Below, piece after piece: positions 3,001 through 56,000 of a stretch of DNA of 64,000 nucleotides. Origin of the DNA: Candidatus Peribacteria bacterium (GTDB lineage: Bacteria > Patescibacteriota > Gracilibacteria > Peribacterales > Peribacteraceae). Below the pieces are notes generated by a model, which searched no databases, was not told the DNA's origin, and worked only from the letters and a program-made list of their open reading frames with translations. The translations under genes were made by a program, and so were the position numbers. The DNA lies in the NCBI GenBank assembly GCA_023245775.1, contig JAHFJR010000003.1, forward strand, positions 3,608-67,607, in the 5' to 3' direction. Position 1 is the stretch's first letter, and the number at the start of each line of letters is the position of its first letter.

Positions 3001-5330
3001 CCAACCAAGGTGGTACAGTTTCTGTATTCCTCAATAATGGTAACGGCACCTTCGCCACCAAGGTCGATTATGCAACAGCCTCAGGTTCAACATGGGTCGC
3101 TATCGGAGACGTCAATGGTGATGGCAAGCCAGACCTTGCCGTTGCAAATGAGACTTCAAATTCCGTCTCTATTCTCCTCAATAATGGTAACGGCACCTTC
3201 GCCACCAAGGTCGATTATACGACTGGTAGTGCACCTCATTCAATTGCTATCGGAGACCTCAATGGCGATGGCAAAGCTGATCTTGCTGTTGCAAATTACA
3301 GTTCAAATACCGTCTCCGTCCTCCTCAACAATGCTCGCACCATTCTCTATGCCAGCTCAGGCACCGGCGGCGCCGTTGGCATCGGTACCTCCACACCGGG
3401 TTCCGCACTCGCAGTCTCGGGTGCTGTGCTCATCAACAGAAACGGAAATATTCTGAATACATCCGCTGACGTCGGCCTCGCACTTGAAGTCATCGGCACG
3501 ATGTCGGGTCGCATTCTCCATGCACAGGATCTGCTCCGCTCATCGGGTTCCGTCATCGTCGAAGGGACGATCTCGGGAGCGCTGCTTCGAGGAGCAGGTC
3601 TTGGCAGCTGCAACAGCACAACCCAGAAGCTCCTCTACAACAATACATCATTCAAATTTGAATGTGGGACAGACCTCCTTGGCAGTTTCGGCACGGGTAA
3701 CGTGATGACGATTGGTGATGCGCGCTATGTGAATACCAGTGGCGACACCATGACTGGCGCCCTCACCATCAATCTCACTTCCGGCTTCCTCGGCCTCAAG
3801 GTTCTCAACACGGCTTCCGGAAATATTCTCCACGCAGAGAAACAACTCAGTTCCTCCGGAACGATCATCGCAGTGAATGACATTCTCTCTCGAAACGGCA
3901 CCGCCAAAACCAAAGGTTTCGTCCTCTTCTCTGGGGCAACCCTTTCCGAAATGTCTGGCTTCAATGAATCGGTGAACCTCATCCACTCCGGCCTCGCAAC
4001 CAACTCCATCACGCGTCTCACCAACCAGGGTGACCTCGTCAATATCGGCACCATCCAGTCCGGTGAGGCGCACTTCAGAAGGGGCGGGACATTCCTGCCG
4101 AAGACGGATTATACGACAGGTTCACTGCCAAATTTTGTCTCTATGGGAGACTTGAATGGCGATGGAAAAGCAGATCTTGTTGTTGTCAACCAAACCTCAA
4201 GTACCGTCTCTGTCTTCCTGAACAATAGCAATGGCACCTTTGCTTCTAAAGTTGATTATACGACTGGCTCAAGTCCACGCTCCGTCTCCATCGGAGACCT
4301 GAATGGCGATGGAAAAGTAGATCTTGCAGTTGCAAATGCCAATGATAGCACTGTCTCCGTCTTCCTGAACAATAGCAATGGCACCTTTGCTTCCAAAGTC
4401 GATTATACGACAGGCACAAGTCCATATTCCGTCTCCATTGGAGACCTCAATGGCGATGGCAAAGCAGATCTTGCTGTTACGAACATTGGTATCGGTGTCA
4501 AAACCGTCTCCGTTCTCCTCAATAATGGCAACGGCACCTTTGCTCTGAAGGTCGATTACGCAACCGGAACGAATCCATACCCTGTTGTTATCGGAGACCT
4601 GAATGGCGACGGTAAGGAAGATCTTGCAGTTGCAAATGCCGATGATAGTACTGTCTCGATCCTCCTCAATAACGGCAACGGGACATTCTCTACGAAGGTC
4701 GATTACACGACGGGTTCAAGTCCACGCTCCGTCTCCATCGGAGACCTGAATGGTGATGGGAAAGCAGATCTTGCTGTTGTGAATGGAAGTGATAGTACTG
4801 TCTCCATTCTCCTCAATAACGGCAACGGCACCTTCGCTACCAAGGTCGATTATACGACCAGCACAATTCCACAGTCGGTCTCTATGGGAGACATGAACGG
4901 TGATGGGAAGGCAGACCTTGCGGTTGTGGGTTCGAGCGAAAATGTAGTTTCTATTTTCCTGAATAATGGCAATGGCACCTTTGCTGCGAGAGTCATTTAT
5001 GCGACTGGCACAAATCCAATCTCCGTCTCCATCGGAGACCTCAACGGAGACGGAAAGGCAGATCTTGCTGTCGCGAACAGCTCAAACTCTGTCTCCGTCC
5101 TCCTCAACGACTCCCGCACCATCCTCTATGCCTCCGCTGGCACCGGCGGTGCCGTTGGCATCGGTACTTCCACTCCGGGTTCGGCCCTCGCGGTCTCCGG
5201 TGCCGTGCTCATCAACAGAAACGGAAACATCGCAAACAGTGCAGCCGACGTCGGCCTCGCACTCGAAGTCATCGGCACGATGTCCGGTCGTATTCTGCAT
5301 GCGAACGATCTCCTCAGATCTTCCGGCTCG
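1..5330 (+). repeat. Coding super-repeat, period 1776/1773 nt (three full units plus the tail of a fourth)
   Basis: Unit starts (GGN AAY GTN = G-N-V) lie at 147, 1923 and 3696. Connector and linker segments are near-identical at the nucleotide level, while the blade segments are clearly more diverged. Confidence 0.95.
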
Positions 5331-7955: not shown

Positions 7956-8033
7956 ACACAGCAGTATACCCGAAATAGAGACAATGATTTTTTGGCTGCA
8001 GGACTTTCTTCTTCGATGCGTTCGTTCATTTGT

Positions 8034-8177
8034 TTGACAGTGTACGGGGAGCATGGCAAATTCTTGGCAGTGTCACGCACCCTGACGATCATCAGCTCCA
8101 TTATTATTTCCGCTTCCGTGCGGGGGTAGGAGCGTAACCAGATACGCATTCTCTCCTCCGCAGACGGAGGATTTTTT
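8034..8177 (+). promoter_or_regulatory. Candidate ilvA leader/attenuator (TTGACA box, Ile/Thr-rich leader ORF, terminator hairpin overlapping the ilvA SD)
   Basis: TTGACA at 8034-8039. Short ORF 8070-8129 (GTG; or TTG at 8064) encodes VSRTLTIISSIIISASVRG-stop. Hairpin TCCTCCG-CAGA-CGGAGGA at 8154-8171 is followed by T6 (8172-8177) and then the ilvA ATG at 8178. Confidence 0.4.
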
Positions 8178-9455
8178 ATGCCAAACCTTTCACTACCAAC
8201 CATCGGCGATATCGAAGCAGCTCGCAGAGAACTGCCGGAGGACTTTGTCTTTCGGACGCCGCTAGAGCCTCATGCCAGATTATCCAATCAGCATGGTGCT
8301 GATATCTATCTGAAGCGGGAAGACATGCAAGGAGGAAGGTCCTACAAACGTCGAGGGGCGGGTAATGCGATGCTTTTATTGCCACCTGAAACAAGGAAAA
8401 AAGGCGTTGTCTGTGCGAGTGCAGGGAATCACTCACAGGGTTTCAGTGCTTCCTGCAATTATTTTCATGTGCATGGGGTGGTCTTCATGCCAAAGAATAC
8501 TCCTCAGCAGAAGATCGATGCGACACGACAGTTAGGGAATGGTTTTGTGGAGATCAGACTCGTCGGAGATACGTTCGATGAAGCGAATGTTGCAGCGAGA
8601 AACTATGTCGCAGAGACCGGTGCCTCCTACATTCACCCGTTCGATGATGGTGATACGATTGCAGGTCAGGGGACCGTGGCGCTTGAAATATTTGAGCAGA
8701 TGTCTGCAATCCAAAGAAAGGTGGATCTTCTCCTTGTTCCTGTAGGCGGCGGCGGGTTAGTTGCGGGGAGTGCCATTTGTGCGTGTGGGAAGTCTCCACA
8801 GACAAAGGTCATCGGAGTCGAGCCGGAACATGCAGCAGCAATGCATGCATCCCTTGAACAAGGACACTTGGTTACATTGCAGAGGGATCGCATGAGCAGA
8901 TTCGTTGACGGTGCTGCGGTACTCACTCCGGGCGAACTGACATTTCAGGCAGTGAGAGATCTAGATGTGCAGATTAGGACAGTCCCAGAAGATCGCGTAT
9001 GCGGAACCATGATCGATTTGTTCAATAGGGAGGGGATGGTGACGGAACCCGCCGGAGTATTATCCATTGATGCCTTAACAGACATTGCTGCTGACATACA
9101 TGGACAGACGGTTGTCTGTGTCCTCAGTGGTTCGAATTTTGATCTTTCCCGTTATCCTGATGTTCTTGAGAGATCGGATCGCTTCAGAAGAAGGAAGCGA
9201 TATTTTACCGTTGAAATGCCAAATCGCCCAGAAGCACTGAGCGAGTTACTCGATCTCATCACGACAAGTTCAGTGAATATCTCGGATATTGATTTTCATC
9301 AAGTTGCCTCCGGTGGAATGGCAAACTGTTTCATCGGTCTTGAGTCGATTGAATCAGGTGTCCTCGATCAAGCAGTTTTACGGTTGCGAGGGTATGGCAC
9401 CGTGGAAGAAGAGACAAAGAATCCTCTCCTTGCAGAGCTTCTGAAGAGAAGATAG
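8178..9455 (+). CDS. ilvA: Threonine ammonia-lyase (threonine dehydratase), PLP-dependent, with C-terminal ACT-like regulatory domain
   Basis: SYKRRGAGN (PLP-lysine motif), ASAGNHSQG and the GGGGL loop. Length 425 aa. GGAGGA SD 7 nt upstream of the ATG. Confidence 0.9.
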   Translation: MPNLSLPTIGDIEAARRELPEDFVFRTPLEPHARLSNQHGADIYLKREDMQGGRSYKRRGAGNAMLLLPPETRKKGVVCASAGNHSQGFSASCNYFHVHGVVFMPKNTPQQKIDATRQLGNGFVEIRLVGDTFDEANVAARNYVAETGASYIHPFDDGDTIAGQGTVALEIFEQMSAIQRKVDLLLVPVGGGGLVAGSAICACGKSPQTKVIGVEPEHAAAMHASLEQGHLVTLQRDRMSRFVDGAAVLTPGELTFQAVRDLDVQIRTVPEDRVCGTMIDLFNREGMVTEPAGVLSIDALTDIAADIHGQTVVCVLSGSNFDLSRYPDVLERSDRFRRRKRYFTVEMPNRPEALSELLDLITTSSVNISDIDFHQVASGGMANCFIGLESIESGVLDQAVLRLRGYGTVEEETKNPLLAELLKRR

Positions 9456-9481
9456 AAACAGTCTCCAGAGTTGGATACAAT
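9453..9481 (+). promoter_or_regulatory. Putative promoter TAGAAA-N17-TACAAT placing +1 at the ATG of the ABC ATPase gene (leaderless arrangement)
   Basis: TACAAT at 9476-9481 and ATG at 9488, exactly 7 nt after the hexamer. Confidence 0.35.
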
Positions 9482-9487
9482 CTGCCC

Positions 9488-30287: not shown

Positions 30288-32198
30288 TTACTTGGCCTCA
30301 GTTGCAACTTCTATTTCCTGTGGCCCTCCGCTCACAACGGCTTTGATTCTCCGTACTCCCGCAGAAGAACTCTCCTCTTTCTGGATCTTGAAGTGTCCGA
30401 GCATGCCTGTTTTCGCGACGTGTGGCCCACCACAGATTTCTTTTGAAAATACTGGGACGTTGCGTCCCAGCTCCGATTTTTGTCCCAGCTCCGAGTTTTT
30501 TCCTAGCTCCGTATCACCTCCCATCGTATAGACCTTCACCTTCTCGCCGTACTTGCTCTCGAAGACGCCTATTGCACCCGCGGCTTTCGCTTCATCAACG
30601 GTCATGACCGAGTAACTGACGGGCACGTCAGCTTTGATCGCTTCATTTACGAAATCTTCCGCCTGTTTGATCTGCTCCGGTGTCATCTTATCGGGATACG
30701 AGAAATCGAAACGAAGTCTTTCGGCGGTGATATTGGATCCCTTCTGCCAGATACCGTCTCCGAGAATTTTTCTGAGAGCTGCGTTGAGAAGATGTGTCGC
30801 GGTGTGCAACTTCGTCGTCTCTGCCGAGTGATCCGCAAGACCTCCTGCAAATTTCTTTTCTGCTCCCGCACGGCTGAGTTTCTGATGCTGCTCGAAGGCC
30901 TTCTTGAAGCCCTCTTCGTCCACCTTCAGATGTCCTTCCGCCGCGAGGTCTCTCGTCATTTCGATCGGGAATCCATACGTGTCATACAGACGGAAGGCTG
31001 TTGCGCCGTCGATGATCGTCATCCCTGTCTTCAGCACGGTCTTGTCGTAGTGCCTCAGTCCTTCCGAGAGTGTGTGTTTGAACTGCCCCTCTTCATGGTT
31101 CAGAGTCTGGTAGATCTCACGAGATTTCTCTTGGAGGTGCGAATAACAATCTCCATACTGGTGAATGATTTCTTGTGCGATGACAGAGCAGTACATTCTC
31201 GTTTCAAAATCTGCATGCACTTCGATGTTCAGTCTGCGGATGGATCGAAGAGCACGACGGATAATTTTTCTTAGAACATAGCCCTGATCGACGTTGCTCG
31301 GTCGTACGCCATCGGCGATCATGAACGTTGATGCCTTCAGATGATCGACGATGATGCGGACATGGCGTGTCACGTAGCGTCCAAGTTCGGTGTCATCGAG
31401 GATGTGTACACCCCGTGCGAGTTCCACGAGTGAACTGAACGCATCCGTCTCATAGACACTCTTCACTCCCTGCATCACTGCGGCGACACGCTCAAGCCCC
31501 ATGCCCGTATCGACGTTCTGCTGGGCGAGCGGCACGAACGAACCGTCTTCCTGTTTGTTGTACTGCATGAAGACGTCATTCCAGATTTCAAGCCAATTGG
31601 CATCGTCATTCTCCGGATTCGATCTGGATGGTGGGAATACAGAAGGCCCGACCCAATAGAACATCTCGGTATCCGGTCCGCACGGGCCGGTTTTCCCTGC
31701 TGGTCCCCACCAGTTCTTCGCTTTTGGAAGAAAGCCGATGCGTTCACGCGGAATGCCGACAGATTCCCAAATTGTTGCTGATTCCTCATCTTTTGGCGCA
31801 TCCTTGTCACCTTCGAAGCAGGTGACTGCGAGCATCTTCTCATCGATTCCGAGCCATTGTTGTGATGTCAAAAATTCGAAGCTCATCTCGATCGCTCCCT
31901 TCTTGAAGTAATCCCCAAGTGACCAGTTGCCGAGCATCTCGAAACATGTGAGGTGTGACATATCGCCGACTTCGTCGATGTCTTGCGTTCGCACGCAGAG
32001 CTGCACGTCGCAGAGCCTTCTCCCGAGTGGATGCTTCTCTCCCATGAGATAAGGGACGAGCGGGTGCATGCCCGCCGTCGTGAAGAGCACGGTGGGATCA
32101 TTCTCCGGAACGAGCGATGCGCCGGCGATCACCGCGTGACCTTTGGACTTGAAGAAGTCGAGGTACGCTTGCCGGATCTCTGCAGTGGTGCGAGGCAT
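30288..32198 (-). CDS. alaS: Alanyl-tRNA synthetase, short form (catalytic + tRNA-recognition + editing domains; no coiled-coil or C-Ala domain)
   Basis: FFKSKGH, FTTAGM, FEMLGNWSLGDYFK, editing-site HTATHLL and CGGPHV. The protein ends ~20 aa after GVRRIKAV. ATG at 32198. Confidence 0.93.
   Translation of the reverse strand: MPRTTAEIRQAYLDFFKSKGHAVIAGASLVPENDPTVLFTTAGMHPLVPYLMGEKHPLGRRLCDVQLCVRTQDIDEVGDMSHLTCFEMLGNWSLGDYFKKGAIEMSFEFLTSQQWLGIDEKMLAVTCFEGDKDAPKDEESATIWESVGIPRERIGFLPKAKNWWGPAGKTGPCGPDTEMFYWVGPSVFPPSRSNPENDDANWLEIWNDVFMQYNKQEDGSFVPLAQQNVDTGMGLERVAAVMQGVKSVYETDAFSSLVELARGVHILDDTELGRYVTRHVRIIVDHLKASTFMIADGVRPSNVDQGYVLRKIIRRALRSIRRLNIEVHADFETRMYCSVIAQEIIHQYGDCYSHLQEKSREIYQTLNHEEGQFKHTLSEGLRHYDKTVLKTGMTIIDGATAFRLYDTYGFPIEMTRDLAAEGHLKVDEEGFKKAFEQHQKLSRAGAEKKFAGGLADHSAETTKLHTATHLLNAALRKILGDGIWQKGSNITAERLRFDFSYPDKMTPEQIKQAEDFVNEAIKADVPVSYSVMTVDEAKAAGAIGVFESKYGEKVKVYTMGGDTELGKNSELGQKSELGRNVPVFSKEICGGPHVAKTGMLGHFKIQKEESSSAGVRRIKAVVSGGPQEIEVATEAK
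30464..30517. repeat. 18-nt tandem repeat x3 inside alaS (encodes ELGKNS-ELGQKS-ELGRNV)
   Basis: Units start at 30464, 30482 and 30500 (GTCCCAGCTCCGATTTTT-like). Confidence 0.9.
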
Positions 32199-32288
32199 AG
32201 AAAAAACGGTATTACGAGAGTACTGAAGGACGGATTTTTCGTCGAGATGATTGACGAATGCCAAGATTCATTTACATTATCCTTCCTC

Positions 32289-33593: not shown

Positions 33594-33622
33594 TTGACAA
33601 TATTTTATGAATAAGGTAAAGT
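33594..33622 (+). promoter_or_regulatory. Putative promoter TTGACA-N17-TAAAGT upstream of the DUF11 gene
   Basis: Consensus -35 at 33594-33599. It would give a ~40-nt C/U-rich leader to the ATG at 33670. Confidence 0.4.
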
Positions 33623-33669
33623 TCGTCCCTTTTCCTTCATCTGACGCACGTCCATTCCCCCCTGCTCCT

Positions 33670-36600
33670 ATGGAGTTTCGCAAGACGATCGCCTCATTGG
33701 TACTCACGGCTCTCCTCCTGACCGAGGTGCAGATGGGAGCCCTCTCCGTATTCCAGCCCTTGATTCCAGTGTCGAGCGCTGCGGGTGCAGCTGACCTCAG
33801 TATCACCAAATCTGCTTCTGCATCCTCTGTTCTGCGTGGCACGACCATCACCTACACCGTCACTGCCTCCAATGCTGGACCAGATACGGCGACGAACGTC
33901 GTCATTGCAGATCCGATTCCTGCAGATTTTCTCTTCAACTCCGGTCTCAGTAGTCCTGGTTGTGTGCAGATTGGTTCCAATATTCTCTGTGATAGTTTCA
34001 GCTTGAATGCCGGCGACTCTCATCCGGTGAGCATCGTCTTCGATGTTCCAACGATCTCGAACTGCACACCGAGTACCGTCTCGAATACTGCCTCTGTTTC
34101 CTCTTCCATCACCGACCCAGACTCCAGTAACAACCAGAGTAACACCGTCCAGACGAATGTCACCTGCCCTCCTATCACTGCGGACCTGAGTATCACCAAA
34201 TCCGCTTCGTCACCGTCCGTTGTTCGTGGCTCTGTCATCATGTACACCGTGATCGCGAGCAACGCCGGTCCAAGTGCAGCAACCAACGTCGTGATCACCG
34301 ATTTGTTTCCCGCAGGCCTGACGTTCAATGCAGGCATGAGTAGTGCAGGTTGTGTGCTCAACGGTACAGAAGTTCTCTGCAATAACTTCAATCTATCAAG
34401 TGGCGACACACATACGGTCCAGATTGCTTTCGATGTTCCCCTCGTTCCGAATTGCTCACAGACGACGATACAGAATTCTGCCATCGTGTCGACGTCGATG
34501 ACCGATCCGGATCCGAGTAATAACCAGAGCGCTGTGGTCCAGACCACCGTCACGTGTCCCACCATGCAGGCTGACCTGAGCATCACGAAGTCCGGCCCAT
34601 CGTCCATCGTTCGTGGTTCGGTGATCACGTACACGCTCACGGGTTCGAATGCAGGCCCAGATGCAGCCACGAATGTCGTCATCAGCGATCCCATCCCCGT
34701 AGGCCTGACGTTCAATGCAGGCATGAGCAGTGCAGGGTGTGTGCAGAATGGTTCCAATATTCTCTGCGATAGTTTCAGTCTCACCAGTGGTCAGAATCAT
34801 GCGGTGCAGATTGCCTTCACTATTCCGGCCGTCGCTAACTGCAGTCAGACGACCATCCAGAATATGGCGTCCATCTCATCGAGTTCGACCGATCTGAACC
34901 CAGGCAATAATCAGAGCGCTGTCGTGCAGACCACGGTGATGTGTCCCGTGCTCTCTCCGAAGCTCTACGTCACGAAGTCGGTGCCAGCGCTGACCGTGGG
35001 TGGTCAGAATGTGACCTACACGTTCACGCTCCAGAATACGAGTACGTTCACAGCGAATAATGTGTACGTCTATGACTACTACATCGACGCGACTCTCGTG
35101 AAGATCGCGCCTCCGTTCACGTTCCTCTCCTCGAGTGGCCTCACGTGTCAGTTCGAGATGATCAATAATCGCGTTGCCTGTGCGCCCGTGAACTTGGCGC
35201 CGCAGCAAATGATCCAGTTCACGATGACGTTTGCAACACCCTCCAGCGGTCCTGCTTGCAACTATGCGTTCACGAATAAAGTGGAAGCTATTGCAGGGAC
35301 CGACCAGCAGTCGCTAGATACCGATACCGCTTCGACATTCCTCCAGTGTTCCGCTCCGCAGTTCAGCTTGAGCAAGCTTGGTCCGACGGTCGTGAGTCCT
35401 GGTGAGGAACTGTCCTACATCATCACGGCGACCAATACCGGTCAGACCGTGCAGACAGGGATCCAACTCGTCGATGATATTCCTCTCGGCCTCATCTTTC
35501 AGCCTATTGGTTCAACGGCAGGTTGTAGTGTCCAGACGGATGCTGTTGTGTGCGCTGCGCAAACATTCAATCCCGGCCAGATCATCAGTTACACCCTCAA
35601 GTTCATTGCAGACTCAACTGTCGCGTGCGGATCGGTCATTCTCAACGAGGCCGAGCTCAAGAAGAACGGCGTCGAATTCCGGTACTCGAACCAAACGCAC
35701 TCCGATGTGCAGTGCAATAATCCGAAACTCGACGTCACCAAGAGCGCTCCTATCAGTGTCAATGCTGGTGGGACTGCAACGTATACCTACATTCTCCATA
35801 ATACGAGTCTGACGTCTTCGGCATTGGCGATCGAACTCTTCGATTTCAATATTGATCCTCAGGCGCATCCCCTGAATCCTGCACAGTTCACATTCCTCTC
35901 GTCGTCGATCGGTCACTGTACGGTGGACTCCGAGGCTCGTGTGCACTGCACCTTGCCGAGCTTGTCGCCCAATCAGACCGTCACGTTCACGCTCACCTTC
36001 GCTGTGCCGAATACGCCACAGCTCTGTGGTACAACCGTCATCAATCAGGTGGATGTCTGGACGCAGGGACGGATCGCGGATGCTGATTGGGACAAGGCCC
36101 AGACCATCGTCACCTGTCCGCTGATCTCTGATCTCGGAATCATCAAGACGGGGGCAACGTCCATCACGCGTGGGAATGTCCTGAGCTACAACCTTGCCGT
36201 AACGAATGCGGGGCCGTCCATCGTCCCTGCCAACGTTCGTGTCGTGGATGCCATTCCGCAGGGGCAGAGCCTCACCTTCAATCAGGGAGCCAGCAGTGCG
36301 GGTTGCAGCCAGAGCGGGACGACGATCGTCTGTCTTGGTACGCTTGCACCGAATACATCGACCAACTTCGTCGTTGCATTCACCGTGCCGACGATCCAGA
36401 ACTGCTCCGTCGCATCGATCTTCAATACGGCAACCGTCACCAGCCAGCTCACGGATTCGAATCTGACGAATAACACCAGCCAGGTTGCAACGACGCTGAA
36501 CTGTCCTGACACGGGTGGAGGTATCACCGTCTACAAGACGGACAATCGCACGACCGCGAATGTGAATGATGTCCTCCACTACGACATCATCCTGACCAAT

Positions 36601-37230
36601 AGCGCCAATACGACCTCGGCCAACCTCACCGTGACGGATGCAGTTCCCTACGGTCTCACGATTCTCGATGTGTCGGATGGCGGCAGTATCAGTGGCCAGA
36701 ATGTGACGTGGAACAATATCACGGTGGGTGCCAATGCCAGTCGGACCATCCGAGTGAATGCGAGGGTACGTACGGATGTGAGTGATCGTACAGTTCTGCA
36801 TAATACTGTGTCTGTGAATGGCCAATCTTCGTCGGACGACACGACGATCAACAATCCGACCTACAGCAATAACCCCCCCACGTACTATCCTCCGTACCAA
36901 GTTGCCTACCAGCCCCCCTACTACCAGCAGCCCTATCAGCCTTCATACACGCCGGTGGCTCCCACGGTGTTCTCTGTGCCAGCACCTCCCGTGACTCCTC
37001 CGCCTATCTATTATCCCCCCGTCGTCATCCCGCAGACAGGGACGATCGGTGCAGGATTCTATGCGAATGCCTACGATCGATCGAAACTGTCGCCAGCGCG
37101 CGTCGCTGCCGCTGTCTCAGATGCAGCCAGTCAGAGCGCCTTCTCATCGATCTTCTACCTCACGCTCCTGACACTCTTCGCCGCTGGATCAGCGACTGCG
37201 ACGAGGTTCCTCATCGGGGGAGGTTTGTAA
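33670..37230 (+). CDS. Large cell-surface protein with about 8 DUF11-type (conserved repeat) domains, a Pro/Tyr-rich stalk and an IPQTG + TM C-terminus
   Basis: Signal peptide MEFRKTIASLVLTALLLTEV. Repeated (A)DLSITKS...Y.(V/L)T..N.GP..A.NVVI.D..P.GL.F... pattern. PTYYPPYQVAYQPPYYQQPYQPSYTP, then VVIPQTG and a terminal hydrophobic segment. Confidence 0.9.
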   Translation: MEFRKTIASLVLTALLLTEVQMGALSVFQPLIPVSSAAGAADLSITKSASASSVLRGTTITYTVTASNAGPDTATNVVIADPIPADFLFNSGLSSPGCVQIGSNILCDSFSLNAGDSHPVSIVFDVPTISNCTPSTVSNTASVSSSITDPDSSNNQSNTVQTNVTCPPITADLSITKSASSPSVVRGSVIMYTVIASNAGPSAATNVVITDLFPAGLTFNAGMSSAGCVLNGTEVLCNNFNLSSGDTHTVQIAFDVPLVPNCSQTTIQNSAIVSTSMTDPDPSNNQSAVVQTTVTCPTMQADLSITKSGPSSIVRGSVITYTLTGSNAGPDAATNVVISDPIPVGLTFNAGMSSAGCVQNGSNILCDSFSLTSGQNHAVQIAFTIPAVANCSQTTIQNMASISSSSTDLNPGNNQSAVVQTTVMCPVLSPKLYVTKSVPALTVGGQNVTYTFTLQNTSTFTANNVYVYDYYIDATLVKIAPPFTFLSSSGLTCQFEMINNRVACAPVNLAPQQMIQFTMTFATPSSGPACNYAFTNKVEAIAGTDQQSLDTDTASTFLQCSAPQFSLSKLGPTVVSPGEELSYIITATNTGQTVQTGIQLVDDIPLGLIFQPIGSTAGCSVQTDAVVCAAQTFNPGQIISYTLKFIADSTVACGSVILNEAELKKNGVEFRYSNQTHSDVQCNNPKLDVTKSAPISVNAGGTATYTYILHNTSLTSSALAIELFDFNIDPQAHPLNPAQFTFLSSSIGHCTVDSEARVHCTLPSLSPNQTVTFTLTFAVPNTPQLCGTTVINQVDVWTQGRIADADWDKAQTIVTCPLISDLGIIKTGATSITRGNVLSYNLAVTNAGPSIVPANVRVVDAIPQGQSLTFNQGASSAGCSQSGTTIVCLGTLAPNTSTNFVVAFTVPTIQNCSVASIFNTATVTSQLTDSNLTNNTSQVATTLNCPDTGGGITVYKTDNRTTANVNDVLHYDIILTNSANTTSANLTVTDAVPYGLTILDVSDGGSISGQNVTWNNITVGANASRTIRVNARVRTDVSDRTVLHNTVSVNGQSSSDDTTINNPTYSNNPPTYYPPYQVAYQPPYYQQPYQPSYTPVAPTVFSVPAPPVTPPPIYYPPVVIPQTGTIGAGFYANAYDRSKLSPARVAAAVSDAASQSAFSSIFYLTLLTLFAAGSATATRFLIGGGL
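33790..34960 (+). repeat. 390-nt coding repeat x3 (the first three DUF11 domains)
   Basis: ADLSITKS codons start at 33790, 34180 and 34570. Confidence 0.9.
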
Positions 37231-50968: not shown

Positions 50969-51375
50969 TGGTGGAGATGCCGGGAGTTGAACCCGGGTCC
51001 AACGTGTAGTGGGTAGGCCAGTACGATCATGTTCCTCTCGTTATTCACCTTCCGTAGGAGAGAAACAGAGAAAGGAAGGTGAAGACGATGTCTGTATACA
51101 AGAGCGGTTACAACATCCGATAACCGTCAGGTCCCGCTGTGACGCCTCATCCCAGTAGCGAGAATCGAGGGGAAGCGTGGTCCGAAGTGAATCAGACCTT
51201 AGGCCATGGCCATCGCAGGGGCAAAGACATTCATCTTTGCAATAGCGCGACCGATGACACTGTCGGCAAATTTGTCGGCAGGTATAGGTTGCAACAAGTG
51301 GATAACGGGAACCGTTGCCGTCCCGGATCGTGGCACAGACTCACTAGAATCACGCTGTCAAAGCCTGTCATCCCC
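50969..51375 (-). ncRNA. ssrA: tmRNA (transfer-messenger RNA)
   Basis: 5' end GGGGATGACAGGCTTTGACAGCGTGA and 3' end GGGTTCAACTCCCGGCATCTCCACCA, with G3:U70 in the acceptor stem. An internal tag frame ends ...NVFAPAMAMA-TAA (stop at 51199-51201). Length 407 nt. Confidence 0.9.
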
Positions 51376-51535: not shown

Positions 51536-52498
51536 TCAGTATACCACAGATTGACGAGCCATCTTCACTTTTCGATTTCTCCATTCATGGAACATCTGTC
51601 GACCAATTTTCCATTTGCCCCTTTCTCGAAAGGCAGGCATAGATTGTTTTTTTGCAGCGTTGGCAAGGCTTTGAGCTGAGTGTAGAGAATCCTCTCTTGC
51701 CATCTCGCTCAAGAGCAGAATTTCATCACTGCGGAGGTAGGCAATGCGCTTATGAAGACTCTCTTTGAGCAAAACAACAACAATGTGCTCCATATTTTTC
51801 GTAGAGCGATCATCGTCATATGCCTGCAGTGATGCATAGTATTGCCTCTTTTCTTTATCCCGAATGATGATAGGAGGATAGCGATGCGATTTGAGTTGGA
51901 ATTGCATGAGTGCGCGTCCCACGCGTCCATTCCCGTCACAAAATGGATGAATGCGTTCAAACTCTAGGTGGAAGGCGACAATGCACTGGAGAATGTCCGA
52001 AGGAGTCGCATCATATGCTCGCAGGGCATTGGCCATCAGTGAAGACACATGAGCGGGCGATGGAGCAATGTGACGACCAACCCGGACATACTCTTCGCCA
52101 TGACGGAAACGCCCAGCAATATTTTCATCGATGTGGCTCAGAAGTGTTTGGTGTATGAGCAAGATCATCTGCTTGTTCAGTGATTCCTTTGTACGCACTT
52201 TCTCATTCAAATACTCTGTTACCCGTGCGAGATTGATCGCTTCAAAAAATTCCCGCTGCGTATGGTAGGGCGGAATCTCCTGATGTAGCAGGATCTTCTC
52301 AGTTTCGTCCAAGGTAAGTGTGGAATTCTCAATCGCGTTCGAGTTATAGATTGCTTCAGGCAATTCTGCTTCTTCAAGAAGCGCTAACAGTGAATCTTTC
52401 CCTGTTCGCAATTGATGGAACTCCTGGAGGAGGACATCAAGATGCTTGCGTGTCGTTAGATGCAAATTTATAGGTGAAAAAGTACATATAGTATACAT
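51536..52498 (-). CDS. Fic family protein (AMPylase-type), class II with an N-terminal inhibitory motif
   Basis: Fic motif HPFCDGNGRVGR. Inhibitory (S/T)xxxE(G/N) motif = SNAIEN upstream of the core. GC is lower than in neighbouring genes. Confidence 0.9.
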   Translation of the reverse strand: MYTICTFSPINLHLTTRKHLDVLLQEFHQLRTGKDSLLALLEEAELPEAIYNSNAIENSTLTLDETEKILLHQEIPPYHTQREFFEAINLARVTEYLNEKVRTKESLNKQMILLIHQTLLSHIDENIAGRFRHGEEYVRVGRHIAPSPAHVSSLMANALRAYDATPSDILQCIVAFHLEFERIHPFCDGNGRVGRALMQFQLKSHRYPPIIIRDKEKRQYYASLQAYDDDRSTKNMEHIVVVLLKESLHKRIAYLRSDEILLLSEMAREDSLHSAQSLANAAKKQSMPAFRERGKWKIGRQMFHEWRNRKVKMARQSVVY

Positions 52499-52509
52499 TT
52501 TTCACCTAT
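52470..52509 (-). promoter_or_regulatory. 12-bp perfect hairpin enclosing the fic start codon
   Basis: ATAGGTGAAAAA (52470-52481) and TTTTTCACCTAT (52498-52509). The fic ATG (52498-52496) sits at the stem-loop junction. Confidence 0.5.
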
Positions 52510-52513
52510 AAAA

Positions 52514-52912
52514 TCAATAGATTTTCTTCAGCGCCCAATTTGCAACTCCCAGTACCGATCCGATGGTGATCCATCCGCTGATTCCGCCTGTAAGGGTGAG
52601 TGCCAGAATGTTCGGGTCCATCTGCAGCGTGATCTTGTAGATCAAGGTGAGAAAGAGCGTGTTTACGAGAAGATCCGCAAGGAGGCTCGTGACGAGGTGG
52701 AGCGGGAAGGTGAAAAGGTTCAGAAGCGGCCGAACGAGGAAGTTCATGAGGGTGAGCAGACTGCCGAAGATCACGAAGGCGCCAACCCCACCGAAGAGCG
52801 TGAAGTACTGCGGGAGGTAGGAATCGAGAAGGCCTGCCAGCACCGAGTTCAGAACCGCGCTGAGAGTGAGTCGGAGGGGGAGGGAGAGTTTGAGCACAGA
52901 TGAGAAGTACAT
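52514..52912 (-). CDS. Small 4-TM membrane protein, phage-holin-superfamily-IV/DUF360-like
   Basis: LMNFLVRPLLNLFTFPL resembles the LN.lvRPll.lltlPl core of that family. Confidence 0.55.
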   Translation of the reverse strand: MYFSSVLKLSLPLRLTLSAVLNSVLAGLLDSYLPQYFTLFGGVGAFVIFGSLLTLMNFLVRPLLNLFTFPLHLVTSLLADLLVNTLFLTLIYKITLQMDPNILALTLTGGISGWITIGSVLGVANWALKKIY

Positions 52913-53006: not shown

Positions 53007-56000
53007 TTACTTCTTCTTCTCAAATTTGACCTCGATCTGCATCTCTTCGATCTCGACCGTCTGGGCTTTCGCTTTCGTCTCGCCGAGTGTTGCTTTCGTC
53101 TCACTCAAGACCAGTTCCTGATGCTGAATGAGAATCGCATCTGCTCCGGTGAGTGACAGCGTGATCGTGTCCGTGAACTCAAGCCCTGCATCTTTCCTGA
53201 GCACCTGAATCGCATGGATGAGTTCACGGGCTTGCCCCTCGAGTTTTAGAGCATCTGTTAGGGCTGTATTGAGGCTGACGACGATGCCATGCTCAGATGC
53301 GACGCAGCCGTCTTCTTTCGTTTTGAAGACGACCGTGGCTTCGCTTCCGGTGATCGTTTCGCCAAGGACAATGAAACCACCCTCTTTCTCCTCGAAATTT
53401 CCTTCTTTGCCGGCACGGATCAATTCCTGTACTTTCGAGCCGAGACGCGGTCCGACTTTGCGCGCATCGATCTGCAGGATCTTCGTTGCGATTGCAGCGG
53501 CATCCGAGACGGCGATCACCTGTTTCACATTCAGCTCCTCTTTGATGAGCTCCTTGATGATCTGGCCGTCCTCGGAGGGCGGCAGTGCGACGGTGACGGA
53601 TTGCAGTGGCGTGCGTACGGCAATCTTGGCATCGGCTCTGAGTTTGAGACCGAGCGTCACGATGGAGCGCGTGTTATCCATGCGCGTGAGGATGCTCTGA
53701 TCTTCATCGCTGAGTTCGCAGCTGACTGGCCAATCCGTGAAGTGCACGGATCCGTGGTCTTCGGCAACGAGATTCAGGTAGATCGCTTCGCTGATGAAGG
53801 GGCAGAATGGAGCGAGAAGCTGCGCATTGGCAAGCAGAACTCGGTAGAGTGTGTCGAGAGCATCTTTCTGCTCGCCGGACGAAGCCTTGGCGAAGTCTGG
53901 CTCCTGTTCATTTTCGGATCCTAACTCTTTACCTGCAAGACGGCGGCGACTCAATCTCACATACCAGTTTGTGAGGTCATCGATGGATAGACAGAGGTGT
54001 GCACAAGTGGCCGAGAGATCGTAGCCATCCAGTTCCTTCGTCATGTTATTCACGAGCGTCTGTGTCTTCAGAGTGATCCACCGATCGAGCAGGTTCTTGC
54101 TCTGCGCATTCTTCAGAGAGAAATCCAGTGATGGTTTCCACTTGGCGGCATTTGCGTACGTGACGAACAGGCGATACGCATGCCAGAGAGGAAGCAGAGT
54201 AGAGCGCACGGTTTCCTCCACGAGCTTCTCGGAGAAGCGGAGATCTTCGCCTCGGACGGCAGGGGAAGCCATGAGGGCAAATCGCACCGCATCAGCTCCA
54301 TGTCGATCGGCAACCAGCGTCGGTTCGGGATAGTTCTTGAGTCTCTTACTCATCTTTTTCCCATCTTCCGTGAGCACCGTGCCATTCACGATGCAGTGGC
54401 GGAACGCTGGACAGTTGAAGAGTGCGCTACTCAGAACGGTGAGTGTATAGAACCAGCCGCGCGTCTGATCCAGTCCTTCGGCGATGAAGTCGGCGGGGAA
54501 ACCTTCAGGAATATCTTTCTTCTCACTCTGTCCTTCGAAGGGGAAGTGACCCTGCGCATAGGGCATCGAGCCTGACTCGAACCAGCAGTCGAGGACCTCC
54601 GGGATTCTCTGCATTTTAGGAACGATCGTGAACGTGTACGCATGCCCATTCTTCGGCTCCTCTTTCATCGCATCGTCATAGGACATGCCGGTGACGTACT
54701 TCATCGCACGTACCACACCGCCATGACCCACGAGAAGCACTTTCTTTCCTGCAAATTCCTTCAGCAGCAGATCGGAACCGCGTCGGATTCTTGCCGTAAA
54801 TTGTTCGAAGGATTCTCCTCCTCCATCGGGCGTGACGCGTAACCAAGTCGGTGTCAGTCCTTTCGGTTTCTTCTTCGGTCCGTGCTTCGTCATCACGTCA
54901 TCAATCAGCGTATTGGACCATGTACCGAGGTGGCGCTCGCGAAAGATGTCGTACTTTCCCGCGTATTCAATCTTCAATTCTTTACTGAGGATGGTTGCCG
55001 TTTCCACGGCACGCTTCAGATCCGACGAGAGAATGACATCGAAGGTCTGTCCTTTGAGCTTTTCTGCTGCTGCTTTGGCTTGCTCTTTCCCGATCTTATT
55101 GAGAACCATGTCGATATTGCCGCCTTGGGTCAATTTCTGTTTGTTCAAATCCGTCTCCCCATGCCGTACGAGTGTCAGCTCCACGGACTTTCCCCGTCCG
55201 ACCGCATCCGGGCGGGCACTTTCCCCGTCCGACCGCATCCGGGCGGGCACTTTTCCCTTTTCACTCGCCCAGACAATCTCGTCCACGGTCTCTTTGTGCA
55301 GATCCATCTGCGCGTTCTTCTCGTGATCCCAGTAGAAGGTGCGATGACCGGCGGTTTCTGGATAGGGCTGATGGACGATCTTGTGTTTCTCCTGTCCCGT
55401 GAAGAAATGGATCGCGTTCATGACGAGGTCGGCGTGCGTTACGACCACGATTGTCTCACCTTTGTGCTTCTTCAGGATCTCATCGAAGAACGCACTGAGC
55501 CGGAGTTCGGCCGAGTCCCATGTCTCCATTCCTTGAAAATGGAACACGCTCTCCACTTGATTCTTCGAGAGTTTGTGTGCACGGCGTTCCTTGATGAAGG
55601 TCAGATCGTCGAAGTCGATGTGTTTGCCTTCGTACTCACCGAAGTCGAGTTCACGGAGCCTTTCATCGATCAGAATCGTTGCGTCCGTTGCGGCGGCGAC
55701 CGCTCCGGCTGTCTGTTGTGTCCGAAGAAGGGGCGAACAGTAGATGGTTTTAAGAGGAAGGCCGGCTTGATTCTTCACGGCTTCTGCAAGCTCTTTCGCT
55801 TGTCCTTGCCCACGCTCAGTGAGCGGAGTACCTGGGACTTTTCCCTGATAGATCGTCTCCACATTTCCCTCACTCTCACTGTGGCGTGCGACGATGATCT
55901 TCGTGAACCTCTGAGGATCTTTGGACACAAGTTCATCGCGTGAGCCGATGACCTCGATCTCTCCCGTGATCGCGTTCCGCCAGATCGGAAGTGGCGTTCC

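What the first reader, a model, noticed from the sequence alone, without database searches (positions are those of the whole stretch)
54618..55901. IleRS with two histidine-phosphatase (PGAM-like) domains inserted into its catalytic core
The ileS ORF (53007-57449, minus strand) has every class I/IleRS landmark: PHYGH, WAISRNRYWGTP, DCWFESGSMPYAQ and KMSKRL. It is 1480 aa, roughly 400 aa longer than ordinary type-2 IleRS.

The excess resolves into two ~190-aa modules:
- aa ~517-705: IIVARHSESEGN...YCSPLLRTQQTA...VVVTHADLV.
- aa ~756-944: LTLVRHGETDLN...LSSDLKRAVETA...LLVGHGGVVRA.

These are the RHG-x-x-x-N and distal His signatures of histidine phosphatase superfamily branch 1 (PGAM/CobC/SixA-like). 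Module 2 looks catalytically canonical. Module 1 has RHS in place of RHG.

The modules bracket a short native IleRS piece (MDLHKETVDEIVW). They occupy the place where the Zn-knuckle segment normally precedes R(I/V)PEV-DCWFESG.

I am not aware of a described aaRS-phosphatase fusion of this kind. The gene is divergent from rel, 60 bp away, with a Nudix hydrolase 3 kb further on. A link to nucleotide-alarmone or tRNA-end chemistry is therefore conceivable, but that is pure inference.
Basis: partly seen in the sequence, partly recalled or inferred. Interest (0 to 1): 0.85.

Follow-up and report, generated by a model that had tools for sequence, protein, structure and literature searches.

The report
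IleRS carrying two nested histidine phosphatases
This Peribacteria (candidate phyla radiation, CPR) isoleucyl-tRNA synthetase really has two intact-looking histidine-phosphatase domains looped into a peripheral subdomain (CP3); such nesting turns out to be common but apparently undescribed in Ile- and Val-tRNA synthetases of CPR bacteria, and its purpose is unknown.

Summary
ORF 53007-57449(-) is a complete type-2 IleRS (TIGR00392 830 bits). It carries two His_Phos_1 domains at aa 517-705 and 756-944 (E 5e-36 and 7e-38), each with the full catalytic residue set.

It is not an artefact. The identical protein occurs in two ENA assemblies. Eleven Peribacteria species genomes encode both modules at 44-65% identity. 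AlphaFold2 folds the IleRS body and both modules confidently (pLDDT 90.5, pTM 0.88).

The interpretation needs correcting:
- **Location.** The modules sit at two loops of the peripheral, fold-variable CP3 subdomain. They did not displace a Zn knuckle.
- **Uniqueness.** The architecture is not unique. His_Phos modules are nested in IleRS at four or more sites and in ValRS (up to four copies) across CPR lineages. The catalytic residues are invariant in 103 modules examined.
- **Other inserts.** GNAT and P-loop domains are nested in relatives.
- **rel/Nudix.** This adjacency is Peribacteria-only synteny.

The modules most resemble compact small-molecule phosphatases (PspA, PhoE, GpgP, CobC), not mutases.

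Ten literature searches found no description. The best reading is autonomous phosphomonoesterases riding on an essential scaffold. A tRNA- or aminoacylation-linked role is not excluded.

The parts
53007..57449 (-). ileS ORF, 1480 aa: type-2 isoleucyl-tRNA synthetase with two nested histidine-phosphatase domains
   Evidence: TIGR00392 829.7 bits (cutoff 621.4). Pfam finds tRNA-synt_1 (split), His_Phos_1 x2, Anticodon_1 and DUF5915.
55914..57449 (-). aa 1-512: first Rossmann half (HIGH = PHYGH at aa 58), CP core, CP1 editing domain, CP2 and the start of CP3 (WAISRNRYWG at 475)
   Evidence: AF2 pLDDT is mostly above 90. Foldseek TM 0.76-0.77 to 1ILE and 6LDK.
55335..55901 (-). Module 1 (aa 517-705), His_Phos_1 nested at CP3 site 1. 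Catalytic residues R522, H523, N529, R576, E600, H672.
   Evidence: Pfam E 4.6e-36. Residues. Mean identity 67% among Peribacteria. Site-1 modules are the commonest class in CPR IleRS.
55185..55334 (-). aa 706-755: retained native CP3 piece (QMDLHKETVDEIVW, aa 714-727) followed by a disordered linker
   Evidence: The DLHKxxVD motif aligns to insert-free IleRS. AF2 pLDDT is below 50 at aa 737-752.
55187..55248 (-). Perfect 31-nt tandem duplication inside the linker, read in two different frames; it is required for ORF continuity in this allele
   Evidence: A one-copy version stops at aa 748.
54618..55184 (-). Module 2 (aa 756-944), His_Phos_1 nested at CP3 site 2 (the hairpin before RIPEVLDCW). 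Catalytic residues R762, H763, N769, R813, E838, H909.
   Evidence: Pfam E 6.8e-38. Residues. Only 26% identical to module 1. It clusters with other site-2 modules.
53580..54617 (-). aa 945-1290: second Rossmann half (DCWFESGS at 954, KMSKR at 1032), stem-contact fold and anticodon-binding domain
53016..53552 (-). aa 1300-1478: DUF5915, the C-terminal domain typical of type-2 IleRS
   Evidence: E 2.6e-21.
57509..59437 (+). Context only: divergently transcribed rel (HD_4, RelA_SpoT, TGS, ACT). Not part of the feature.
   Evidence: The adjacency is not conserved outside Peribacteria.

Best explanation
This is a genuine, vertically inherited multifunctional enzyme of the class Peribacteria (Peregrinibacteriota, CPR).

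**Shown**
- A complete, editing-competent-looking type-2 IleRS has two independently folding branch-1 histidine-phosphatase domains looped out of two loops of its peripheral CP3 subdomain.
- Both domains retain the complete catalytic apparatus: Arg-His nucleophile, Asn, second Arg, Glu proton donor and distal His.
- They resemble compact PspA/PhoE/GpgP/CobC-type phosphomonoesterases, not dPG mutases.

**Inferred**
- The synthetase charges tRNA-Ile normally.
- Each module works as an autonomous phosphomonoesterase on small phosphorylated metabolite(s). The two probably have different specificities, given 26% identity and different caps.
- The essential, constitutively expressed synthetase acts mainly as a permissive scaffold. 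It guarantees co-expression in a ~1-Mb-genome, ultra-small cell.

This gene is one instance of a CPR-wide habit of nesting small enzymes (His_Phos, GNAT, a P-loop domain) into surface loops of class Ia synthetases.
For: **Real gene**
- Identical protein in two assemblies.
- 11 Peribacteria species carry both modules at 44-65% identity, in continuous 1420-1619-aa ORFs.
- No GC anomaly.

**IleRS intact**
- Equivalog score above cutoff and all motifs present.
- The AF2 body matches solved IleRS at TM 0.76-0.77.

**Modules are enzymes**
- Catalytic residues are invariant in 103 nested modules at ~30% identity.
- Module 1 (67%) and module 2 (51%) are conserved like the core (74-78%) and the C-terminal domain (59%).
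- AF2 pLDDT is 90-98 in both modules.

**Phosphatase type**
- Best PDB sequence hits are PspA 4IJ5 and PhoE.
- Foldseek TM is 0.77-0.82 to PspA, PhoE, GpgP and HFP, against ~0.63 to dPGM.

**Scaffold rather than site-specific coupling**
- Modules occur at four or more unrelated loops: CP3 sites 1 and 2, between SMPYA and FPADFIAEG, and in the anticodon-binding domain. They also occur in ValRS, with 1-4 copies per protein.
- Unrelated GNAT and P-loop domains nest in the same hosts.
- aaRS are known to be favoured insertion hosts (PMC13114784).
- Nested modules are not systematically basic.
- No CP3-tRNA contact is described for the yeast IleRS-tRNA complex.
- There is no conserved neighbour hinting at a partner.
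Against: - No substrate is identified. Neither module reaches any NCBIfam equivalog cutoff.
- Repeated, independent nesting specifically into Ile/Val synthetases, rather than into any abundant protein, hints at a functional tie to these enzymes that a pure scaffold model does not explain.
- This window's module 2 is strongly basic (+9, pI 9.6).
- One relative combines the phosphatase with a kinase-like P-loop domain, a pairing reminiscent of end-healing enzymes.
- I could not inspect model coordinates, so the orientation of the phosphatase pockets relative to the tRNA path is unknown.
- I could not test whether these genomes lack free-standing housekeeping phosphatases.
Confidence: 0.5

Rival explanations
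1. The phosphatases act in cis on the aminoacylation cycle. Examples: removing a 3'- or 2'-phosphate from damaged tRNA ends so they can be charged (end healing), or hydrolysing a phosphorylated by-product or inhibitor at the synthetase.
For: - Hosts found so far are only class Ia synthetases (IleRS, ValRS), repeatedly and at several sites.
- Catalytic residues are strictly kept.
- Module 2 here is basic, pI 9.6.
- P0236 pairs His_Phos with an AAA_18/AAA_33 P-loop domain, with a weak Pnkp1 hit at E 0.066.
- Both modules match the phosphatase half of the RNase H/acid phosphatase model PRK07238.
Against: - Insertion sites are scattered over CP2, CP3, the Rossmann half and the ABD rather than focused near the acceptor end.
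- The nearest relatives are small-molecule phosphatases.
- There is no class-wide basic shift.
- No CP3-tRNA contact is reported.
- The P-loop match is weak and equally close to shikimate and APS kinases.
- Many CPR IleRS and ValRS lack modules.
Confidence: 0.22
2. The modules are protein phosphatases that protect or regulate the synthetase. For example, they could reverse inhibitory phosphorylation by HipA/HipT-like toxin kinases, or act like the phosphohistidine phosphatase SixA.
For: - The superfamily includes protein phosphatases (SixA, PGAM5, Sts; my own knowledge).
- There are weak SixA model hits.
- Toxin kinases are known to target aaRS (GltX, TrpS; my own knowledge).
- A Fic-domain gene lies two genes downstream of ileS.
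Against: - The SixA match is marginal (26 bits against a cutoff of 74.5 for module 1).
- The closest structures are metabolite phosphatases.
- No kinase partner is conserved nearby.
Confidence: 0.07
3. The modules are non-catalytic: either structural filler for the CP3 subdomain or ligand-sensing regulatory domains that modulate IleRS.
For: - CP3 is structurally plastic (PMC7191050).
- The modules sit where other IleRS have a small hairpin or Zn knuckle.
- pTM 0.88 suggests a defined arrangement with the core.
Against: - All six catalytic positions are invariant across 103 modules at ~30% identity, which is not expected for a scaffold.
- Insert-free relatives do well with a 78-aa CP3.
Confidence: 0.08
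4. Artefact: an assembly chimera, a pseudogene, or two genes falsely joined.
For: - The continuity of this allele depends on a perfect 31-nt tandem duplication read in two frames.
- At least one database relative (P0015) does look chimeric.
Against: - The same protein occurs in two assemblies.
- Nine other species have uninterrupted ORFs spanning both modules.
- Composition is flat.
- Both modules are flanked on each side by in-frame IleRS sequence.
Confidence: 0.02

Closest known systems
Type-2 (eukaryote-like) bacterial IleRS, e.g. T. thermophilus 1ILE, P. megaterium IleRS2 8C8U, and yeast/Candida IleRS 8WND/6LDK
   Same: Full domain set, HIGH/KMSKS and CP1 editing motifs, and the DUF5915 C-terminus. 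E 1e-189 to 2e-227, TM 0.76-0.77.
   Different: CP3 is 487 aa instead of ~78 aa between WAISRNRYWG and DCWFESGS, because two whole enzymes are nested in it. There are no Zn-knuckle cysteines.
Compact branch-1 histidine phosphatases: PspA phosphoserine phosphatase (4IJ5), PhoE/YhfR (1H2E/1EBB), GpgP Rv2419c, CobC, riboflavin-pathway HFP (9MMH)
   Same: Fold (TM 0.77-0.82), ~190-aa size and the complete catalytic residue set.
   Different: The modules are nested inside another enzyme. No equivalog-level match exists. Module 1 has an unusual conserved cap segment (DLTFIKERRAHK...FHFQGMETW). The substrate is unknown.
NCBIfam NF040702 'isoleucine--tRNA ligase, N-acetyltransferase domain-containing' (IleRS with a nested GNAT)
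   Same: It shows that IleRS carrying a nested accessory enzyme is a recognised annotation class. A sister Peribacteria species (L004) and P0003/P0008 carry GNAT and His_Phos together.
   Different: This protein has no GNAT (272 bits against a cutoff of 1999). The GNAT sits at the CP1 edge, not in CP3.
Bifunctional RNase H/acid phosphatase (PRK07238, M. tuberculosis Rv2228c type)
   Same: A CobC-like His_Phos domain is joined to an unrelated nucleic-acid enzyme. Both modules match its phosphatase half at 88-96 bits.
   Different: That case is an end-to-end fusion, not a nested one. The host differs, and the scores are far below the cutoff of 326.
Canonical nested domains of class Ia synthetases (CP1 editing domain, LeuRS-specific insertions)
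   Same: The topology is the same: a domain looped out of the Rossmann fold. aaRS are known favoured insertion hosts (PMC13114784).
   Different: Those inserts serve aminoacylation fidelity. Here the insert is a phosphomonoesterase with no known role in translation.

Membership tests
Isoleucyl-tRNA synthetase, type 2 (TIGR00392 ileS) | Equivalog HMM score above the curated cutoff | tested here: met
   829.7 bits against 621.4.
Isoleucyl-tRNA synthetase, type 2 (TIGR00392 ileS) | Class I signature motifs HIGH and KMSKS; CP1 editing motifs; anticodon-binding domain; type-2 C-terminal domain | tested here: met
   PHYGH at 58, KMSKR at 1032, WTTTGWTLP at 245, GTGIVHIA at 337. Anticodon_1 and DUF5915 found. 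Fold TM 0.76-0.77.
Isoleucyl-tRNA synthetase, type 2 (TIGR00392 ileS) | Aminoacylation of tRNA-Ile | not testable with these tools
   Needs a biochemical assay.
Histidine phosphatase superfamily, branch 1 (PF00300) | Profile match above the gathering score for each module | tested here: met
   124.8 and 130.7 bits against 21.7.
Histidine phosphatase superfamily, branch 1 (PF00300) | Catalytic residues: RH(G) nucleophile His, two Arg, Glu proton donor, distal His | tested here: met
   R522/H523/R576/E600/H672 and R762/H763/R813/E838/H909. These positions are invariant in 103 nested modules.
Histidine phosphatase superfamily, branch 1 (PF00300) | Alpha/beta fold of the superfamily | tested here: met
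   AF2 pLDDT about 89-90. Foldseek TM 0.77-0.82 to PspA, PhoE and GpgP.
Histidine phosphatase superfamily, branch 1 (PF00300) | Phosphomonoesterase or mutase activity | not testable with these tools
   Needs an enzyme assay.
Cofactor-dependent phosphoglycerate mutase (dPGM) | Equivalog scores and a full-length match including the mutase-specific C-terminal half | tested here: not met
   All dPGM models are far below cutoff (best is dPGM_arch at 102 against 225). PDB dPGM hits align only to about residues 6-108. Foldseek TM is about 0.63.
Alpha-ribazole phosphatase CobC (TIGR03162) | Equivalog score above 162.9 for one domain | tested here: not met
   The whole protein reaches 182.5 only by summing two domains. 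Single modules score 89.7 and 103.5.
Phosphoserine phosphatase PspA (NF045917) | Equivalog score above 350 | tested here: not met
   87.3 and 70.8 bits, although PspA is the best PDB relative.
IleRS with nested GNAT (NF040702) | Model score above 1999; GNAT domain present | tested here: not met
   272 bits. No GNAT Pfam hit. The loop is only 37 aa where L004 and P0003 carry the GNAT.
Mupirocin-resistant IleRS MupA/MupB | Exception-model score above 1900 | tested here: not met
   630 and 625 bits.
Mobile or self-splicing insertion (intein-like or recent mobile-element insertion) | Flanking repeats, a compositional break, or splicing-domain homology | tested here: not met
   No flanking repeats at the module borders. 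GC is flat. Pfam finds only His_Phos_1 in the insert. Modules cluster by site, which indicates vertical descent.

The most novel reading that the evidence does not exclude
The nested histidine phosphatases of CPR Ile/Val-tRNA synthetases form a previously unrecognised synthetase-linked activity that acts on the aminoacylation cycle itself. Candidates are dephosphorylation of 3'/2'-phosphorylated tRNA ends (built-in tRNA end healing), or destruction of a phosphorylated inhibitor or by-product at the enzyme. That would amount to a new class of aaRS accessory catalytic domain alongside editing domains.
Probability: 0.2. Interest if true: 0.85.

Novelty: new variant of a known kind. Interest (0 to 1): 0.62.

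Why it matters
Apart from editing domains, catalytic domains nested inside bacterial aminoacyl-tRNA synthetases are rare.

- **What is new here.** Catalytically intact phosphatases are nested, often in several copies and at several sites, in IleRS and ValRS across a large part of the candidate phyla radiation. As far as ten full-text searches show, nobody has described or tested this.
- **If the modules are autonomous.** It would show how ultra-small, genome-reduced cells package housekeeping enzymes into essential scaffolds. It would also warn that metabolic reconstructions of CPR genomes may miss, or wrongly score, phosphatase/'PGM' functions hidden in aaRS genes.
- **If the modules act on tRNA or the aminoacylation cycle.** It would be a new kind of synthetase-coupled chemistry.
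- **Testability.** Either way it is directly testable with one recombinant protein and two point mutants.

Tried and rejected
1. **Assembly chimera or pseudogene: rejected**.
2. **Recent tandem duplication of one module: rejected.** Modules 1 and 2 are 26% identical and fall in different site-specific clusters.
3. **Zn-knuckle replacement: rejected**.
4. **Functional link to rel/Nudix: no support.** The synteny is Peribacteria-only, and most relatives have only a ~30%-identical rel-like gene 3 kb away.
5. **dPG mutase, CobC or PspA assignment: no equivalog cutoff met**.
6. **P0015 (beta-CASP + module 2) as evidence for an RNA-enzyme link: discarded.** It is a likely chimera on a 2.5-kb contig with a garbled C-terminus.
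7. **P-loop insert of P0236 as a polynucleotide kinase: inconclusive.** E is 0.02-0.07 to shikimate kinase, APS kinase and Pnkp1 alike.
8. **Charge analysis for RNA binding: no class-wide signal**.
9. **Mobile-element signatures at the module borders: none**.
10. **Literature: ten searches found no description**.
11. **dN/dS was not computed.** Orthologues are 57-74% identical at the protein level, so synonymous sites are saturated. Amino-acid conservation was used instead.
12. **The look-up of encoding contigs for P0042 found nothing**.
13. **Database limitation.** The first homology database returned only proteins under 1000 aa (split or partial gene calls). Full lengths came from the representative library and from genome loci.
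Full report
**1. Observation**

The ORF 53007-57449 (minus strand) encodes 1480 aa.
- Pfam finds tRNA-synt_1 in two pieces (aa 22-513 and after aa 945), two His_Phos_1 stretches, Anticodon_1 and DUF5915.
- The NCBIfam ileS equivalog scores 829.7 bits against a cutoff of 621.4.
- Scanned alone, module 1 (aa ~517-705) gives E 4.6e-36 and module 2 (aa ~756-944) gives E 6.8e-38. The 43-aa piece between them matches nothing.
So are HIGH, KMSKR and the CP1 editing motifs.

**2. Is it real?**

- GC content is flat across the insert.
- The identical protein with identical neighbours is present in two separate ENA metagenome assemblies.
- A scan of one genome per GTDB species found 11 'Candidatus Peribacteria' genomes encoding the whole module 1-linker-module 2 segment at 44-65% identity. 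One lies on a 1.39-Mb contig (taxonomy).
- Nine of these have uninterrupted ileS ORFs of 1420-1619 aa with both modules in the same frame.
- Within this set, mean pairwise identity is 74-78% for the IleRS core, 67% for module 1, 51% for module 2, 51% for the linker and 59% for the C-terminal domain. Both modules are therefore constrained, module 1 strongly.
- AlphaFold2 on aa 1-1130 with a 109-sequence alignment gives mean pLDDT 90.5 and pTM 0.88. Both modules are at pLDDT 90-98, and only aa 737-752 is disordered.
- The model's body matches solved type-2/eukaryote-like IleRS at TM 0.76-0.77 normalised to the target. It scores about 0.56 normalised to the query because ~400 residues have no counterpart.

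**3. Where exactly are the inserts?**

- The phmmer alignment to yeast IleRS breaks at query 508/chain 489 and resumes at query 946/chain 519. That lies inside the CP3 subdomain (residues 473-534 in C. albicans IleRS).
- Chung et al. describe CP3 as lying opposite CP2 and as having a different topology in each solved IleRS. It binds Zn only in T. thermophilus (PMC7191050).
- Insert-free relatives have 77-78 aa between WAISRNRYWG and DCWFESGS. The window protein has 487.
- Site 1 lies between '...IGSRDEL-x7' and 'DLHKxxVD'. Site 2 lies in the hairpin between 'VDxI...' and 'R(I/V)PEV'.
- Zn-knuckle cysteines are absent here, but they are also absent in many insert-free relatives (P0092, P0093, P0114). 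They are present in some module-bearing ones (P0182, P0148, P0016). The modules therefore did not displace a Zn knuckle.
- 'Inserted into the catalytic core' is better stated as 'nested in the peripheral CP3 subdomain'.

**4. It is not unique**

- A homology search with the insert plus flanks returned over 100 IleRS clusters (at 90% identity) carrying PF00300. Their source names include Peribacteria, Peregrinibacteria, Parcubacteria/Paceibacterota, Gracilibacteria, Kaiser-, Campbell-, Vogel-, Uhr- and Kerfeldbacteria.
- I classified them by anchor motifs:
  - site 1 only: the large majority;
  - site 2 only: e.g. P0016, P0017;
  - sites 1+2: the window and its Peribacteria relatives;
  - site 3, inside the anticodon-binding domain: P0027, P0040, P0042, P0058 and others.
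- The exhaustive representative search added full-length examples:
  - P0124: 1468 aa, sites 1+2;
  - P0127, P0129, P0149: sites 1+3;
  - P0169: site 3 plus a fourth site between SMPYA and FPADFIAEGLDQTRGW;
  - P0148: three modules;
  - P0236: site 1 plus a weak AAA_18/AAA_33 P-loop domain at site 4.
- P0132 is a ValRS fragment with four modules. A follow-up search found about 30 further ValRS+PF00300 clusters (Gracili-, Moran-, Doudna-, Colwellbacteria), alongside many CPR ValRS without modules.
- Some Peribacteria (L004, P0003, P0008) additionally nest a GNAT domain at the edge of CP1. This is an arrangement for which NCBIfam has an 'ileS_w_GNAT' model.
- Modules cluster mostly by site, which implies long vertical descent at each site. 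Several site-2, site-3 and ValRS modules are closest to free-standing proteins, and site-4 modules are closest to site-1 modules. That implies several acquisitions or intragenic duplications.

**5. Are the modules enzymes, and of what kind?**

- In an alignment of 103 nested modules, the Arg, nucleophile His, second Arg and distal His are invariant in every residue-bearing sequence. The Glu is E in all but one sequence (one D), and the Asn varies in five. Overall identity is only ~30%.
- The Gly of RHG is replaced by A or S in 9 site-1 modules, including this one.
- The closest solved sequences are H. thermophilus PspA (E 1e-17 and 3e-12), PhoE, CobC and GpgP. dPGMs align only over the N-terminal ~100 residues.
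- A separate AF2 model of aa 503-951 (pLDDT 89.2) matches PspA, PhoE/YhfR, GpgP-type hydrolases and the riboflavin-pathway HFP at TM 0.77-0.82. It matches dPGMs at about 0.63.
- Neither module alone reaches any NCBIfam equivalog cutoff. The apparent CobC 'pass' for the whole protein is the sum of two domains.
- Both modules are therefore very probably active phosphomonoesterases of unknown specificity, not mutases.

**6. Function**

*Evidence that bears on coupling to tRNA*
- The insertion sites are scattered over the synthetase.
- Unrelated enzymes (GNAT, P-loop) nest in the same hosts.
- Nested modules are not systematically basic: mean net charge is -2.2 against -3.1 for free-standing ones, although module 2 here is +9.
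- The yeast IleRS-tRNA paper describes contacts by the catalytic, editing, anticodon-binding and C-terminal domains, but none by CP3.

*Evidence from gene neighbourhoods*
- Parcubacteria loci show argS...ileS-recO...other aaRS genes.
- The uvrA-Nudix-rel(-like)...ileS-holin-like order is loosely conserved only within Peribacteria. A close, divergent rel as in the window is seen only in L009.
- No free-standing His_Phos gene occurs in the window or in ~200 kb of related loci.

*Reading*
- I favour autonomous small-molecule phosphatases using an essential, permissive scaffold (confidence ~0.5). aaRS are known to be favoured insertion hosts (PMC13114784).
- Against this, the recurrent choice of Ile/Val synthetases as hosts and the kinase-like co-insert keep a cis role in the aminoacylation cycle alive (~0.2).
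- Protein-phosphatase and non-catalytic readings are minor. An artefact is essentially excluded.

**7. An oddity inside the region**

- The disordered linker contains a perfect 31-nt tandem duplication (55187-55217 and 55218-55248; TRF reports 2.3 copies). It is read in two different frames (PARMRSDGES / ARPDAVGRGK).
- A one-copy allele would stop at aa 748 and split the gene.
- The duplication is also present in the independent contig L001.
- The fusion architecture does not depend on it, because the orthologues are continuous. Read mapping across it is still advisable.

**8. Novelty**

Ten full-text searches found no paper describing a synthetase-histidine phosphatase fusion. The proteins are in public databases under generic names such as 'class I tRNA ligase family protein' and 'histidine phosphatase family protein'. 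I rate this a new variant of a known kind (aaRS with a nested accessory domain). It is widespread but uncharacterised, and of moderate-to-high interest.

Noticed in passing
window 55187-55248 (TRF 55187-55257): Perfect 31-nt tandem duplication inside ileS, in the disordered linker before module 2. The two copies are translated in different frames. A one-copy allele would truncate the protein at aa 748 and leave a ~740-aa open frame starting just before module 2.
   Followed up: partly
L004 (Peribacteria JAYVRL010000039.1) ileS about 7988-12838; proteins P0003, P0008: Sister Peribacteria IleRS carry, in addition to the phosphatase module(s), a GNAT acetyltransferase domain nested at the N-edge of the CP1 editing domain. 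The window protein has only a 37-aa loop there.
   Followed up: partly
P0132 and about 30 clusters (P0270-P0301 etc.): CPR ValRS also host nested His_Phos_1 domains. P0132 has four: one in the CP2 region and three in tandem after WCISRQ...IPVW, with a repeated 'QAPKLQ' lead-in that suggests internal duplication.
   Followed up: partly
P0236 aa ~737-870: An IleRS with a site-1 phosphatase module also has a P-loop (GACGAGKT) AAA_18/AAA_33 kinase-like domain nested between SMPYA and FPADFIAEG. Its similarity to shikimate kinase, APS kinase and Pnkp1 is only marginal.
   Followed up: partly
P0015 (JGI, 2.5-kb contig): The tail of module 1 plus module 2 is joined at the distal-His motif to a beta-CASP metallo-beta-lactamase, with a garbled C-terminus. 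It is probably an assembly chimera rather than a real RNase-phosphatase fusion.
   Followed up: partly
one search hits P0131, P0134 and many others (~405-420 aa): A large family of free-standing proteins made of two tandem His_Phos_1 domains is among the closest non-aaRS relatives of the modules. Their function and taxonomy were not examined.
   Followed up: no
L013 8001-11623 (Parcubacteria OLB19, GCA_001567365.1) and L014 7633-10921: In two Parcubacteria contigs the module-bearing ileS is called as two consecutive ORFs (943+260 aa and 932+142 aa), broken in or just before the anticodon-binding domain (L013) or just after it (L014). This could be frameshift errors or genuinely split genes.
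   Followed up: no
window 153-7445 (+) and 33607-37230 (+): Two giant putative surface proteins: a 2430-aa protein with about 20 FG-GAP repeats and a 1207-aa protein with seven DUF11 repeats.
   Followed up: no
window 30288-32264 (-): The AlaRS ORF is only 658 aa (tRNA-synt_2c plus tRNA_SAD). That is short for bacterial AlaRS, and it apparently lacks the C-terminal C-Ala/DHHA1 region.
   Followed up: no
window 50969-51375 (-), 51536-52912 (-), 59481-60716 (+): A tmRNA gene (tag ADKFADSVIGRAIAKMNVFAPAMAMA), a Fic-domain gene and a holin-like 4-TMS gene lie immediately downstream of ileS. A 411-aa ORF with no Pfam match sits between rel and the Nudix gene.
   Followed up: no
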